Below, piece after piece: positions 37,816-41,544 of a stretch of 64,000 nucleotides of DNA. The translations under genes were made by a program, and so were the position numbers. The stretch comes from Mobula hypostoma (Eukaryota). Each line of letters starts with the position of its first letter. Position 1 is the first letter of the stretch. The notes under the pieces were generated by a model. It made no database searches, was not told where the DNA came from, and saw only the letters and a program-made list of their open reading frames with translations. The DNA lies in assembly GCF_963921235.1 (NCBI RefSeq), contig NC_086097.1, positions 14,260,001 to 14,324,000 of the forward strand, read 5' to 3'.

Positions 37816-40507
37816 AGATAATAGATGAATAAAATAAATTGCCCTATAAACATCCACCAAAGCAGTATCCTTTTCTTCACTGCTTATTCCACAAGTGGCT
37901 GGTCACGACCAATGTACAGACTGTATCTGAAGACAAAAGAGAATGCAAATGCTGAAAGGGGGAGATGTCAGCGTGTCCTGAAGAGATATTACACTGGAGC
38001 ATAAAACATTAGGAGTAGAATTTGGCCATTTGGCCCATCAAGTCTGCTCCACCATTCTACCATGTACAATGGTCGGCGCATCATTGTGGGCTGAAAGGCC
38101 TGTGCTGTGCTGTAGTGCTCTATACTCTATGTTCTAATTTCTGATAAGTCCTGATTTATTTATCACTTATAGATTGAATTCTCGCTGCTGTCATCAGAAA
38201 GGTACAAGAGCCTCAGGACTCACACCACCAGGTTCAGCAACAATACTAATCCTCAACAATCAGATTCTTGAACCAGAGGAGATAATTTCACTCAATGTCA
38301 CTTGCCCATCACTGAACATTTCCCACAACCTATGGATTCACTTTCAAGGACTCTTTATCTTATATTTACAATATTTATTGCTTATTTATTTGTTTGTTTG
38401 TTTGTTATTATTTGTCTTCTCTTTTGTATTTGCACAGTTTGCTGTCTTTTGCACTGGTTGTTTGTCCGTCCTGTAGGGTGTGGTCTTTCACTGATTCAGT
38501 TTTGTTTCTTGGATTTACTGTGTATGCCCATAAGAAATGAACCTCCGAGTTTTATGTGGAGCCATATACATACTTCGATAACAAATTTACTTTGAACTTT
38601 GAACTAAGTGAAAAAACTAATTTTCTGCTCTCGGTGGTTTTAAAGGAAATACCAGTTTGTTTCTTGGTTCATTGCGGATGGTGGGGAAGGGGCAGTCAAA
38701 GAGATTGTTGGATGAATGAGCACGATCATAGACAATGTTAAGGGCCCTGTGCATGCAGCACCTTTGGTAATATCTCGGATAGATTGTCCTTGAGCAGATT
38801 TGCTTTCTAGATCATTTCAAAGGGGAGATCAAACCACACATTTATGGATCTGCAGTTACTGACTCAGTACATTTAATTCCCTAAAGCAAAAGAGTGAACA
38901 GGGTAAATTCCATGAACTATCCAGTCACGTCATGGTTACTGTTGTCAAAGAATCATGTCGCACGGAAACAAGCCCTTCGGCCCAAGCCAACAAAAACGCC
39001 CCATCCAAGCAAGTCTCGTTTACCAGAAGTTGCCCATAGCTTTCTAAATCTTTCCAATTCAGGTAGCTATTGCTACCTTGGCTGACTTTGAATCAGAGTG
39101 TCCTCGAAATAATGAATGCAGAGCTGAACAGGTTTATCATCACTCATAAATGTCATGAAATTTGGTTTTTTTTTTGCAGCACCAGCAGTATCTTCATCCC
39201 CCACCTCCCCAGAAGTTTTCATGTTGTATTATTTTACAACACTGAATCACAGTGGATCTAATTTGGCTTGTTTTGACATTGGTGAACAGAAAAATACTCT
39301 TTTTTTGTCAAAGTGAAAACAGATCGCTATGAAGTGATCCAAATTAATTACAAATTTGAAACACAAAATAATTGATTGCAAAAGTATTCACCCCCTTTAA
39401 TATGACACACCATATCATTACTGGTGCAGCCAGATGGTTTCAGACGTCACATAATTAGTTAAATGGAGATCTGTTTTTGGAGATCTGTGTGCAGACAAGG
39501 TGGTTCAATTGATTACAGTAGAAATACACTTGTCCAATTGAAGATCCAGTTGCTGGTGAATCAGTATCCTGGCAAAAACTACACCATGAAGACAAAAGAA
39601 CTCTGCAAGCAACTCAGTGAAAAGGTTATTGAAAAGCACAAAGTCAGAAGATGGATATGAGAAAATTTCCAAGTCACTGAATATTCCTTGGAGTACAGCT
39701 AAGTCAGTTATCAAGAAATGTAAAGAAAATAGCATAAATGTAAATCTGCCTAGAGCAGGCCATCCTCAAATACTGAGTGACCATGCAAGAAAGGGGCTAG
39801 TGAAAGAGGCCATCAAGTGACTTGTGACAACTCTGGAGGAGTTACAAGCTTCAGTGGCTGAGATGGGAGAGACAGCACATACAACAACCATTGCCCAGAT
39901 GCTTCACCAGTCACAGCTTTATAGAGGATTGGCAAAGAGAAGGCCACTGTTGAAAAGAACTCACATGAAATCTCAGCTAGAGTTTGCCAGAAAGCATGTG
40001 GGAGACTCTGAACTCAGCTGGAAGAAGGTTCTGTGGTCTGATGAAACAAAATTTTTTTTTTTTTGGCTATCAGACTAAACGCTATGTTTGGCATTAGCCA
40101 AATACTGTACATCATCAAAACCACACCGTTCCTTACCGTGAAGCATGGTGGTGGCTGCATCATGCTGTGGGGATGTTTTACTGCAGAAGGACCTGAAAGG
40201 CTTGTAAAGGTAGAGGGTAAAATGAATGCAGCAAAATACAGGGAAATCCTGGAAGAAAACATGATGCAGTCTGCAAGAGAACTGAGGCTTGAGAGAAGAT
40301 TTGTTTTCCAGCAAGACAATGACCCCAAGCATAAAGCCAAAGCTACACAGGAATGGCTTAAGAATAACAAAATTAATGCCCTGGAGTGGCCAAGTCAGAA
40401 TCCAGATCTCAATCCAATTGAGAATTTGCGGCTGGACTTGAAAAAGGCTGCACACTCATGCTCCCCATGCAATTTGACAGAACTTGAGCAGTTTTGTAAA
40501 TATCAAA

Positions 40508-40704
40508 GGGGTGTCTATAGGGTGTCAGGAAGGGGTAGCTCCTCTGGTGGGGGAACATGTTGCATCCTTTTTAAGGTGGTTAGTCCATCTTTGGTCTCCA
40601 CCTGGCACTCAGCTCTCACCTGTGGCTCCCCGTAGCTGTTTGCATGCGACAGCGGCCACACCCCGGGCAACGGCTTCGACAAGCCGGCTAAACCAGGTGA
40701 GGGT
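40508..40704 (+). ncRNA. Candidate HDV-like self-cleaving ribozyme
   Basis: Manual fold gives P1, P2, P3, P1.1, P4 and J4/2 GCUAA in canonical order (see findings). Confidence 0.6.
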
Positions 40705-41072
40705 AGCCGACGGGTCTCAAACATTCAGTGAGATAGGGTGTTGTCTATCCCAGCATGTGAAGACAGACTCCGGCGGATTGAGCGGACGAGACCAATGGAA
40801 GGTCCAATGGTCAAGAAGGTGGTCTCTGCAAACGTCGTGGAACGTGTAGAGCAGGACAAGACACAGAAGACATCCTGGTCATCCACTGCGCCCAGTCCCA
40901 TCTCCAGCCCTCTCGACTCTGTCTTGCCACTGGATCCAGATGGGAATTGGGAAGAGAGAGTGAGGCTGACGCTGCGCAACTCTCCCTCACTTAAATCCAA
41001 ATCACGCGCTGGTCTCGACACCATCATACTGGTGTCGAGGTTCTCACCGACCTTGACGATGGACGAACTCAC
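40508..41072 (+). mobile_element. Non-autonomous RTE-related element inserted in the Tc1 transposase
   Basis: TSD AAATATCAAA(GGGG) at 40498 and 41073; GC-rich structured leader; no credible ORF. Confidence 0.85.
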
Positions 41073-41544
41073 AAATATCAAAGGGGGAAAATAGCAGTCT
41101 CCAGACATGCAAAGCTGACAGATACCAATCCACACAGACTAAAGGCTGTAATTACTGCCAAAGTTGCATCTACTAAATACTGACTTGAAGGGGTTGAGTA
41201 ATTATGCTATCAATTATTTTGTGTTTAATACAGTAATTGTAATACATTTAGACCAACTTATAGAGATCTGTTTTCATTTTGACACAGAAGAGTTTTTTCT
41301 GTTGATCCGTGTCAAAGAAGCCAAAATAAATTCACTGTGATTCAATGTTGTAAAACAATAAAACATGACAACTTCCAAGTGGGGTGACTACTATTTATAG
41401 GGACGATATGTGCCTGTGGCTTATGCACAATACTGTACCTGGGAAAAACCCACATGGTCATAGAGAGAACATGCAAATTCCACACAGACTGCACTCATGG
41501 ATAACAATGAAATCAGGTGGCAAAACGGGGAGTTGTTAATTTGT

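What the first reader, a model, noticed from the sequence alone, without database searches (positions are those of the whole stretch)
40508..40704. HDV-like ribozyme fold with a hairpin inserted in L3, starting at the 5' junction of a non-autonomous RTE element
Seen: P1 GGGGUGU (40508-14) / ACACCCC (40658-64). P2 GCUCUCACCUGU (40612-23) / A(C)CAGGUGAGGGU (40692-704). P3 GGC (40624-26) / GCC (40655-57). L3 begins UCCCCGUA, with a CC that can pair GG at 40665-66 (P1.1). GCAA is followed by P4 CGGCUU-cgac-AAGCCG. J4/2 is GCUAA, with putative catalytic C40688. The long J1/2 is closed by GGGUGUCAGG (40520-29) / CCUGGCACUC (40601-10). Established: this is the HDV helix order, GGGCA..GCUAA occurs in the antigenomic HDV ribozyme, and R2- and RTE-clade elements use HDV-like ribozymes to define their 5' ends. 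Unusual: L3 carries an extra GCUGUU/GACAGC hairpin, which standard descriptors with a 7-8 nt L3 would miss. Inference: a self-cleaving RNA releases a promoterless parasitic retroelement from host transcripts. Caveats: the first GGGG overlaps the TSD, and UGUGGC/GCCACA is a competing helix.
Basis: partly seen in the sequence, partly recalled or inferred. Interest (0 to 1): 0.8.

Follow-up and report, generated by a model that had tools for sequence, protein, structure and literature searches.

The report
Delta-type self-cutting RNA heading retroelements
The first 197 bases of a short, thousand-copy jumping element fold like the hepatitis-delta self-cutting RNA, with an unusual extra hairpin in its active-site loop, and relatives show the fold has been kept by selection.

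Summary
A descriptor for the delta (HDV-like) fold hits the 64-kb window once, at these coordinates. It hits none of 300 window shuffles and none of 20,000 local shuffles.

The element (40508-41072) is a ~560-bp non-coding retroelement with target-site duplications and an (AAC)n tail. Its core 36-mer has 3,486 genomic matches.

Two further families in the same genome and one metagenome element (L145) carry a homologous module at their exact 5' end. One family has a normal 7-nt L3 and includes an autonomous endonuclease plus reverse-transcriptase element. L145 is an intact RTE-type element with the hairpin form.

Between lineages, P1, P2 and P4 differ by compensatory double changes. The L3 U, CC and G, the GG after P1', and the GCUAA junction stay fixed. 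The competing helix is not conserved.

I read this as a genuine HDV-like ribozyme that defines the RNA 5' end. The L3 hairpin is an old, propagated variant. Cleavage itself is untested, and this family's own autonomous partner was not found. It is a new variant of a known kind.

The parts
40498..40507 (+). 5' copy of the target-site duplication. It can be read on to 40511, overlapping the element's first GGGG.
   Evidence: Same letters at 41073-41086 (longest common string of 14 nt).
40508..41072 (+). Whole non-autonomous retroelement (family 1), inserted in a Tc1-like transposase reading frame.
   Evidence: copies 93-94% identical covering 40508-41068. Tail ...GATGGACGAAC(AAC)n in other copies.
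40508..40514 (+). P1 5' strand; predicted cleavage lies 5' of G40508.
   Evidence: Pairs with 40658-64. bp 6 is G-C here and A-U in family 2. Copies begin here.
40515..40611 (+). Long J1/2 domain, a self-contained stem-loop region.
   Evidence: The minimum-energy fold closes it with 40520-29 / 40601-10. It is the most variable part between families.
40612..40623 (+). P2 5' strand.
   Evidence: Pairs with 40692-704. There are double changes in family 2 and in L145.
40624..40626 (+). P3 5' strand (GGC).
   Evidence: Pairs with 40655-57; 96% of cells paired over 78 distinct rows.
40627..40654 (+). L3, 28 nt. U40627, C40628-29 (P1.1) and G40632 are kept. 40630-31 are variable. The inserted hairpin is 40635-40653.
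   Evidence: Family 2 has UCCAAGC (7 nt), family 3 has UCCAAGUA + hairpin + G, and L145 has a 26-nt L3 with the same stem and another loop.
40655..40657 (+). P3 3' strand (GCC).
40658..40664 (+). P1 3' strand (P1').
   Evidence: ACACCCC here and AUACCCC in family 2.
40665..40666 (+). GG of P1.1, pairing with C40629 and C40628.
   Evidence: Invariant in the majority sequence of all three families and in L145.
40667..40670 (+). J1/4 (GCAA).
   Evidence: UAAA in family 2 and UACA in family 3.
40671..40686 (+). P4 hairpin (6 bp, loop CGAC).
   Evidence: bp 2 is G-C here and C-G in families 2 and 3; bp 5 is U-A here and U-G there.
40687..40691 (+). J4/2 GCUAA with the putative catalytic C40688.
   Evidence: GCUAAAC in all three families and in L145; GCUAAAA in L116.
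40692..40704 (+). P2 3' strand (C40693 bulged).
41014..41039 (+). 3' inverted repeat (10-bp stem). Inferred handle for the partner's reverse transcriptase.
   Evidence: Seen in the sequence and kept in the 30 copies. The function is inferred only.
41058..41072 (+). 3' terminus GATGGACGAAC plus a decayed short tail.
   Evidence: Other copies end GATGGACGAAC(AAC)n.
41073..41082 (+). 3' copy of the target-site duplication (readable to 41086).

Best explanation
Window 40508-40704 is an HDV-like (delta-type, nested double-pseudoknot) self-cleaving ribozyme. It forms the 5' end of a short non-coding retroelement that an RTE-type element mobilises. The proposed mechanism has four steps. (1) The element has no evident promoter of its own, so it is transcribed as part of longer host or neighbouring-transposon transcripts (inferred). 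(2) The RNA folds into P1-P1.1-P2-P3-P4 and cuts itself 5' of G40508, using the C of the GCUAA junction. This leaves an RNA whose first base is G1 (inferred from the fold; not assayed). (3) A reverse transcriptase from an RTE-type partner starts at the 3' repeat tail and copies to the RNA's 5' end. New copies therefore begin at G1 next to a target-site duplication (shown as a pattern in the copies). (4) The 19-nt hairpin with its flanking bases replaces the last base of a canonical 7-nt L3. The U, CC and G positions of L3 are left untouched, so the hairpin probably points away from the active site and is tolerated (inferred).
For: FOLD AND CHANCE: there is one descriptor hit in the window, at the stated coordinates, and none in 300 + 20,000 shuffles.

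HOMOLOGOUS MODULES AT EXACT 5' ENDS: family 1 has 3,486 core matches against 0 controls. Family 3 has 851 and 2,028 matches against 0. Family 2 has 148 matches against 9. Duplications abut G1 in family 1 (9 of 20 exactly, 16 of 20 within 2 nt). In family 2, 3 of 7 abut exactly and 2 of 7 are ambiguous by GG. In L145, AGGATGGGAT sits on both sides of an element that starts at G1.

COVARIATION BETWEEN FAMILY MAJORITY SEQUENCES (29 pairs): there are four double compensatory changes: P1 bp6 G-C/A-U, P2 bp3 C-G/G-C, P2 bp11 G-U/U-G, and P4 bp2 G-C/C-G. One change is wobble-compatible. One pair is broken, the loop-closing U.U of P4. Placing the same 10 substitutions at random gave a pattern this good in 2 of 200,000 trials. 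L145 adds four more double changes in P2.

TOOL COUNT on 89 model-aligned cores, 78 of them distinct: 92.2% of cells are paired, against 35-46% with slid partners. The covariation score is 0.182, against 0.03-0.08. None of 500 shuffles is as high.

CONSERVED SINGLE-STRANDED POSITIONS match those of HDV-like ribozymes: the L3 U..G pair (Eickbush 2013, PMC3774820, sections read), the CC/GG, and C-U-A-A. The long J1/2 is within the R2 range of 23 to over 700 nt.

AUTONOMOUS CARRIERS: family 2b encodes endonuclease plus reverse transcriptase, with 114 homologues, most of them ~1,000 aa with both domains. L145 has an intact 1,015-aa frame followed at once by (ATAG)n.
Against: No cleavage assay exists and no RNA 5'-end data could be obtained. 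Rfam's HDV-type models match neither this sequence nor its relatives, including those with a canonical L3. Folding energy is ordinary. The descriptor was written after seeing the candidate. P1 rests on a single covarying pair plus position. A subfamily (9 of 30 sampled copies) starts GGGGUAU while keeping ACACCCC, which gives an A.C mismatch in P1. In families 1 and 3 a second GGGGUGU at nt 10-16 could also pair with P1'. Some copies carry 1-7 extra bases between the duplication and G1. The hairpin stem shows only one wobble change (U-A to U-G), so its own pairing is not proven by covariation. The alignment was fitted to the model and its rows are related. The 30 family-1 loci were the best-scoring, hence full-length, copies.
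Confidence: 0.8

Rival explanations
1. The fold is a true descendant of an HDV-like ribozyme, but the hairpin-bearing form (families 1 and 3, L145) no longer cuts. In this reading the uniform 5' end comes from an internal promoter that starts transcription at G1, as in the dual promoter/ribozyme first 77 nt of L1Tc.
For: L3 lines the active site, and I know of no active HDV-like ribozyme with a 26-28-nt L3. Two literature searches found none. L1Tc shows that one 5' segment can be both promoter and ribozyme (abstract listing). One copy has an extra G before G1 (L012), as capped RNAs can give.
Against: After the hairpin arose, the core kept evolving under pairing constraint. Families 1 and 3 differ by a G-C/C-G swap in P4, and L145 differs from family 1 by four swaps in P2, while U, CC, G, GG and GCUAA stay fixed. 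Hairpin lineages were highly successful (3,486 and over 2,000 matches). They include an element with an intact 1,015-aa frame and fresh duplications.
Confidence: 0.12
2. It is a conserved structured 5' leader with another job, such as binding the reverse transcriptase or starting translation, and the likeness to HDV is only partial.
For: Helices P2, P3 and P4 alone would suit many structured RNAs. HDV-like ribozymes of R2 and L1Tc have themselves been proposed to aid translation (review PMC6765202, passages read). The long J1/2 domain is kept in all lineages.
Against: The HDV-specific features are all present and kept. P1 is formed by the very first 7 nt, with a covarying pair. P1.1 is CC/GG. 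The U..G spacing in L3 is right. C-U-A-A lies directly before P2'. The non-coding families have nothing to translate. The two roles are not exclusive.
Confidence: 0.06
3. It is a chance resemblance in a GC-rich repeat.
For: Folding energy is no better than that of shuffles, and Rfam has no hit.
Against: There were 0 hits in 300 window shuffles and 20,000 local shuffles. The same architecture sits at the same place in four lineages, with compensatory changes.
Confidence: 0.02

Closest known systems
HDV-like ribozymes at the 5' ends of RTE and Baggins retrotransposons (Ruminski et al. 2011, J Biol Chem). The paper is not held; I know it through the review PMC6765202, passages read.
   Same: A delta-type fold sits at the first bases of a promoterless RTE-type element, upstream of the single endonuclease plus reverse-transcriptase frame. 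Its presumed role is release from co-transcripts.
   Different: In three of the four lineages here L3 is 26-28 nt and carries a hairpin. J1/2 is about 90-105 nt. Most copies belong to short non-coding derivatives present in thousands of copies. I could not check whether that paper or its supplements list such variants.
R2 ribozymes (Eickbush, Burke & Eickbush 2013, PMC3774820; abstract and sections 12, 16, 18 read).
   Same: HDV-like fold. P1 and P1' are separated by 23 to over 700 nt. The L3 G that pairs with U is conserved. Occasional P1 mismatches and duplicated P1 sequences occur near the 5' end. 5' junctions vary when cleavage is at the element's end.
   Different: R2 inserts only in 28S rDNA and often cuts upstream in the rRNA. 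Here insertion sites are dispersed and P1 is the element's own first 7 nt. That paper notes odd L3 spacing in one wasp R2 but no L3 hairpin.
Non-autonomous elements that keep their parent's 5' ribozyme: R2 SIDEs (PMC3414825) and NARTc of Trypanosoma cruzi (PMC3383444). I saw only the abstracts in the search listing.
   Same: These are short derivatives that retain the 5' HDV-like ribozyme and a 3' end usable by the parent's enzyme. Family 2a here is of this kind: it is the first ~440 nt of the long element plus a ~20-nt 3' end and (AAG)n.
   Different: The parent clade differs (RTE-type). For the window's family 1, the body between the ribozyme and the tail matches no known parent.
Genomic and antigenomic HDV ribozymes (sequence details recalled, not from a call).
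   Same: The helix order is the same. L3 begins UCC and has G at position 6. GG follows P1'. GGGCAA precedes P4. GCUAA (antigenomic) precedes P2'.
   Different: HDV has a G.U pair at the cleavage site, whereas here it is G-C. HDV has an L3 of 7-8 nt and a J1/2 of a few nt.

Membership tests
HDV-like self-cleaving ribozymes | Nested double pseudoknot with strand order P1, P2, P3, L3, P3', P1', P1.1, P4, J4/2, P2'. | tested here: met
   Coordinates were read. The descriptor hit is unique, with 0 hits in shuffles. Pairs are kept with compensatory changes.
HDV-like self-cleaving ribozymes | Cleavage directly 5' of the first base of P1, so that the downstream product begins there. | tested here: inconclusive
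   Cleavage was not assayed. Indirectly, copies of three families and L145 begin at G1 next to their duplications.
HDV-like self-cleaving ribozymes | Catalytic C in J4/2 followed by purines, directly before P2'. | tested here: met
   GCUAA(A) is present in all three family majority sequences, in L145 and in L116.
HDV-like self-cleaving ribozymes | L3 has a leading U, CC pairing with the GG after P1' (P1.1), and a G five bases after the U. | tested here: met
   UCCNNG is present in every lineage, and only the two N positions vary (CC or AA). The importance of the G comes from PMC3774820 section 12.
HDV-like self-cleaving ribozymes | Short L3 (7-8 nt; the figure is recalled from descriptor-based searches). 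| tested here: not met
   L3 is 28 nt in families 1 and 3 and 26 nt in L145. It is met in family 2 (7 nt) and L116 (8 nt). This is the variant feature.
HDV-like self-cleaving ribozymes | Three-base-pair P3. | tested here: met
   GGC/GCC, with 96% of cells paired.
HDV-like self-cleaving ribozymes | A match to a curated covariance model (Rfam HDV ribozyme, CPEB3, drz families). | tested here: inconclusive
   There was no match at E up to 10. The relatives with a canonical L3 (family 2, L116) are missed as well, so the blank says little.
HDV-like self-cleaving ribozymes | Divalent-metal-dependent self-scission. | not testable with these tools
   This needs a transcription/cleavage assay.
RTE-clade non-LTR retrotransposons and their non-autonomous derivatives | A single frame of about 1,000 aa with an N-terminal AP-type endonuclease and a reverse transcriptase (abstract of PMC2887409). 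| tested here: met
   This is met for the carriers of the homologous ribozyme. L145 has an intact 1,015-aa frame. Family 2b has endonuclease and reverse-transcriptase segments in broken copies. The homologues are mostly ~1,000 aa with PF03372/PF14529 + PF00078 on 3.2-3.9 kb contigs. Against: Pfam gave 0 families for the broken 286-aa piece P0001. The window's own element has no such frame.
RTE-clade non-LTR retrotransposons and their non-autonomous derivatives | An extremely short 3' UTR made of simple-sequence repeat units (abstract of PMC2887409). | tested here: met
   In L145 (ATAG)n starts right after the stop codon. Family 1 ends in (AAC)n and family 2a in (AAG)n. Other RTE-like copies in this genome end in (ACTG)n or (AGAC)n.
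RTE-clade non-LTR retrotransposons and their non-autonomous derivatives | Placement of the reverse transcriptase inside the RTE clade in a tree with named references. | not tested
   No named RTE reference was available. Cluster names were uninformative. The only hint is a 41%-identical bovine endonuclease-domain protein.
RTE-clade non-LTR retrotransposons and their non-autonomous derivatives | The non-autonomous element shares its 3' end with an autonomous partner. | tested here: inconclusive
   None of 185 RTE-like proteins matches the family 1 or family 3 body below E = 0.02. Three RTE copies fetched from this genome have other tails and no ribozyme hit. Only a tiny sample of the genome's RTE copies was seen.

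The most novel reading that the evidence does not exclude
HDV-like ribozymes include an unrecognised, catalytically active subclass. In it the last base of L3 is replaced by a helix, an extra peripheral stem that emerges from the active-site loop. The subclass is old enough to be shared by RTE-type elements of at least two organisms, and it was successful enough to seed thousands of copies. Searches that fix L3 at 7-8 nt would therefore miss a whole branch of delta-type ribozymes. The added stem might be a handle for the element's protein or a folding switch against the competing extended-P3 helix.
Probability: 0.55. Interest if true: 0.65.

Novelty: new variant of a known kind. Interest (0 to 1): 0.58.

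Why it matters
HDV-like ribozymes at the 5' ends of RTE elements are already known, so the general mechanism is not new. Three things are new here.

First, there is a lineage in which a hairpin sits inside L3, the loop that builds the catalytic pocket. All catalytic and pairing positions around the hairpin stay under constraint.

Second, the same module heads both autonomous RTE-type elements and several short non-coding families that together number thousands of copies in a 3.5-Gb animal genome.

Third, this is a natural series: a canonical 7-nt L3, two hairpin forms and one distant hairpin form. That series makes the tolerance of L3 to insertion directly testable.

If the hairpin form cuts, motif descriptors and covariance models for this ribozyme class need a variable L3. 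The count of delta-type ribozymes in animal genomes is then probably an underestimate.

Tried and rejected
RFAM: gathering and E-value scans of the window and of relatives gave no HDV-type hit. I rejected this as evidence either way, because the canonical relatives are missed too.

FOLDING ENERGY of either strand is not distinctive, as expected for a pseudoknot.

RNA EVIDENCE: no RNA holder was listed. All four runs laid were contigs, which cannot show starts, ends or strand. I used them only as leads to related families, and I then verified those families in the genome.

MAFFT ALIGNMENTS across families misplace the gap for the hairpin-less family. I did not use them for pair counts. I used per-family alignments and a model-based alignment instead.

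FURTHER FAMILIES: a search for families with another first base of P1' gave 57 matches, all single mutated copies.

THE PARTNER OF FAMILY 1: tblastn of 185 RTE-like proteins found nothing. Three RTE copies from the genome had other tails and gave no model hit.

OPEN FRAMES in the family-1 majority sequence, including 189 codons on the minus strand, have no protein match. I treat them as unexplained rather than as genes.

NAMES for the RTE-like proteins: cluster names were uninformative.

LITERATURE: searches for an L3 insertion or hairpin in HDV-like ribozymes and for HDV-like ribozymes in SINE-like elements found no description of this variant. Ruminski 2011 and Webb 2009 are not held, so their figures and supplements may bear on novelty.

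EARLIER FINDINGS of this scan: nothing for this place or sequence. A search by words returned two unrelated notes.

Full report
WHAT IS THERE

The window holds one ~565-bp insertion (40508-41072, + strand). It splits a Tc1-like transposase frame and is bounded by AAATATCAAA(GGGG) on both sides. A search of the window's own 3.48-Gb genome with this stretch found 3,701 first-look candidates. The 40 that were scored are 93-94% identical and cover 40508-41068. Thirty were fetched (L001-L030). Apart from L001, which is the window copy itself (92.6% like the majority sequence), they are 94.8-97.6% like it. They end ...GATGGACGAAC(AAC)n and have target-site duplications. A core 36-mer from the window has 3,486 genomic matches with up to 3 mismatches, and the reversed control has 0. 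The 5'-terminal 36-mer has 2,729 matches and 0 controls, so most copies reach the 5' end. I call this family 1. It has no protein-like content: the open frames in its majority sequence match nothing.

THE OBSERVATION

I wrote a descriptor of the delta fold, after seeing the candidate. It required a P1 of 7 bp and a P3 of 3 bp. L3 had to begin UCCNNG and be 7-30 nt long. GG had to follow P1', and C-N-A-A had to precede a P2' of at least 7 bp. J1/2 could be up to 150 nt. It finds exactly one place on both strands of the 64-kb window: P1 at 40508, P3 at 40624, L3 of 28 nt, junction C at 40688. It finds nothing in 300 dinucleotide shuffles of the window, where the mean number passing as far as P1 was 0.05. 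It finds nothing in 20,000 shuffles of the 197 nt themselves. Folding energy alone is unremarkable (z = -0.95 and -0.28 for the two strands). Rfam gives no HDV-type match.

RELATIVES

Laying contigs of four coded public runs on the stretch gave no usable RNA evidence. Its loose ends did point to related sequence forms, which I then looked for in the genome.

- Family 2 (148 matches against 9 controls; loci L031-L060) has a canonical 7-nt L3 (UCCAAGC), P1' AUACCCC, and a 5' end GGGGUAU...
- Family 3 (851 and 2,028 matches against 0; loci L061-L090) is older. It is ~540 bp long and carries the same L3 hairpin as family 1, but a different P4.
- Family 2 splits into two forms. One is a ~465-bp non-coding form ending in (AAG)n. 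The other is a long form whose sequence runs on into an AP-type endonuclease and a reverse transcriptase.
- That protein has 114 homologues at E <= 0.001 among 242 candidates. Most are ~1,000 aa with both domains and lie on contigs of 3.2-3.9 kb.
- A scan of metagenome contigs with an alignment of 15 of these proteins returned 78 loci. In 23 with enough 5' sequence, a relaxed descriptor hit 2, and it hit 0 in the reversed controls.
- One hit, L116, has a canonical ribozyme with an unrelated P1 (GGAGGAG/CUCCUCU) and an L3 of 8 nt.
- The other hit is L145. Its nt 1264-1445 align to nt 1-192 of family 1 at 67-69% identity. It has a 26-nt L3 with the same stem and a different loop. It starts at G1 directly after AGGATGGGAT, which recurs after its 3' end. 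It has an intact 1,015-aa endonuclease plus reverse-transcriptase frame, with (ATAG)n following the stop codon at once.
- That architecture is what the abstract of PMC2887409 gives for the RTE clade.

SELECTION ON THE FOLD

Variation among copies of one family is post-insertion decay, mostly at CpG, and says nothing about selection. I therefore compared family majority sequences. Of 29 pairs in P1, P1.1, P2, P3 and P4:

- 23 are identical in the three families.
- 4 differ on both sides and stay paired: P1 bp6 G-C/A-U, P2 bp3 C-G/G-C, P2 bp11 G-U/U-G, and P4 bp2 G-C/C-G.
- 1 changes U-A to U-G.
- 1, the loop-closing pair of P4 in family 2, is U.U.

Placing the same ten substitutions at random on the 58 paired bases gave four or more compensatory doubles in 5 of 200,000 trials. 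It gave one or fewer broken pairs in 18 trials, and both together in 2 trials. L145 adds four more double changes in P2 (CUCAUGUC with GACAUGAG).

A covariance model of the core, built from 10 hairpin-type sequences, finds family 2 with the hairpin deleted (E about 2e-11) and L145. On its alignment of 89 cores (78 distinct rows), 92.2% of cells are paired, against 35-46% when partners are slid. The covariation score is 0.182 against 0.03-0.08, and none of 500 shuffles reaches any of four of the five measures. The rows are related and the alignment is fitted to the model, so these figures lean towards the structure.

The unpaired positions that matter in HDV-like ribozymes are fixed in every lineage: the L3 U, the CC, the G five bases on, the GG after P1', and C-U-A-A. 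The two L3 positions between CC and G vary, being CC or AA.

The competing helix UGUGGC/GCCACA exists in families 1 and 3. In family 2 the very change that keeps P1 paired turns it into U.U. Covariation therefore favours P1.

THE 5' END

- Family 1: 29 of 30 loci could be scored, and 20 had a duplication of 8 nt or more. In 9 it ends exactly before G1. In 5 it overlaps G1-G2, either because the duplication ends in G or because the copy lacks one or two bases. In 2 there is one extra base, and in 4 there are three to seven extra bases. These loci were the best-scoring copies and so are biased towards full length.
- Family 2: these loci were picked by an internal motif and are not biased in that way. 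Of 7 with a duplication of 8 nt or more, 3 abut G1, 2 are ambiguous by GG, and 2 lie at -2 and -6. Nearly all 28 reach within a few bases of G1.
- L145 gives the same picture for an autonomous element.

A fixed RNA 5' end at the predicted cleavage site is what a 5' ribozyme predicts. An internal promoter firing at G1 would also give it.

MECHANISM AND ITS STATUS

Shown: the fold can be drawn, it is not a chance match, it is conserved with compensatory changes, and it sits at the exact 5' end of four lineages, two of them autonomous RTE-type elements.

Inferred from established knowledge of R2, RTE, Baggins and L1Tc elements (review passages; Eickbush 2013): co-transcription, self-cleavage 5' of G1, and reverse transcription to that end.

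Inferred only: that the hairpin form still cuts. The hairpin with its flanking bases replaces the seventh base of the canonical L3, downstream of the conserved G. After the hairpin arose, the surrounding core went on accumulating compensatory changes only. Hairpin lineages also include an element with an intact frame and thousands of young copies. That argues for activity but does not show it.

WEAK POINTS

- P1 has one covarying pair.
- Nine of 30 family-1 copies begin GGGGUAU against ACACCCC, which gives an A.C mismatch.
- Families 1 and 3 have a second GGGGUGU at nt 10-16 that could also pair with P1'. Family 2 does not have it.
- Rfam sees none of these RNAs.
- The family-1 partner element was not found.
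- RTE-clade placement rests on architecture, not on a tree.
- No RNA data could be used.

COMPARISON AND NOVELTY

The system works like the known HDV-like ribozymes of RTE, Baggins and R2 elements and of their internally deleted derivatives. It meets all defining features that can be read from sequence, except the short L3. My searches found no description of an L3 hairpin in this class. The two primary papers most likely to bear on it are not held. I file it as a new variant of a known kind, of moderate interest.

Noticed in passing
window 40200-40507 and 41087-41195: The retroelement sits inside, and in the same orientation as, the C-terminal part of a Tc1-like transposase reading frame (...FQQDNDPKH...WPSQNPDLNPIENL...). 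The transposon copy is therefore disrupted.
   Followed up: no
L007, L008, L014, L015, L017, L020, L026, L027 (5' ends): A family-1 subfamily starts GGGGTATAT instead of GGGGTGTAT, which is the P1 of family 2, while keeping ACACCCC as P1'. Several of these copies carry extra TATAT-like bases before G1. This could reflect template switching between families at the RNA 5' end, or a tolerated P1 mismatch.
   Followed up: partly
majority sequence of family 1; window 40508-41072, minus strand: One minus-strand frame of the ~578-nt majority sequence is open for 189 codons, almost end to end. Two plus-strand frames are open for 118 and 112 codons. No protein match was found. This may be a composition effect or a remnant of coding sequence.
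   Followed up: partly
L060 + L091 (element nt ~2400 onward): The long family-2 element in this locus is interrupted after its reverse-transcriptase domain by a gypsy-like polymerase/integrase sequence.
   Followed up: no
L171, L173, L175: Other RTE-like copies of the same genome (40-45% identical in protein to L145) end in (ACTG)n or (AGAC)n. Several RTE lineages with different repeat tails therefore coexist.
   Followed up: partly
L100 nt ~150-270: The 5' region of this metagenome RTE-like contig holds a stretch that looks like a tRNA (…GGATAGCTCAGTTGG…GGGTTTGAATCC…), upstream of the reading frame. I did not run it through a tRNA finder.
   Followed up: no
L093 nt 1-100: This contig of a closer relative (59% protein identity) opens with a delta-type core: P2, P3 GGG/CUC, L3 UCCGAGU, GG, and GCUAAA before P2'. 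It lacks the P1 5' strand because the contig starts just before P2. I read this by eye only.
   Followed up: partly
fam 2a loci (e.g. L057 element nt 262-450): The N-terminal ~30-80 residues of the RTE-like frame retained in the short family 2a are up to 80% identical to the N-termini of proteins from crustacean and annelid records. That is unusually conserved for the leader of a retrotransposon protein.
   Followed up: no
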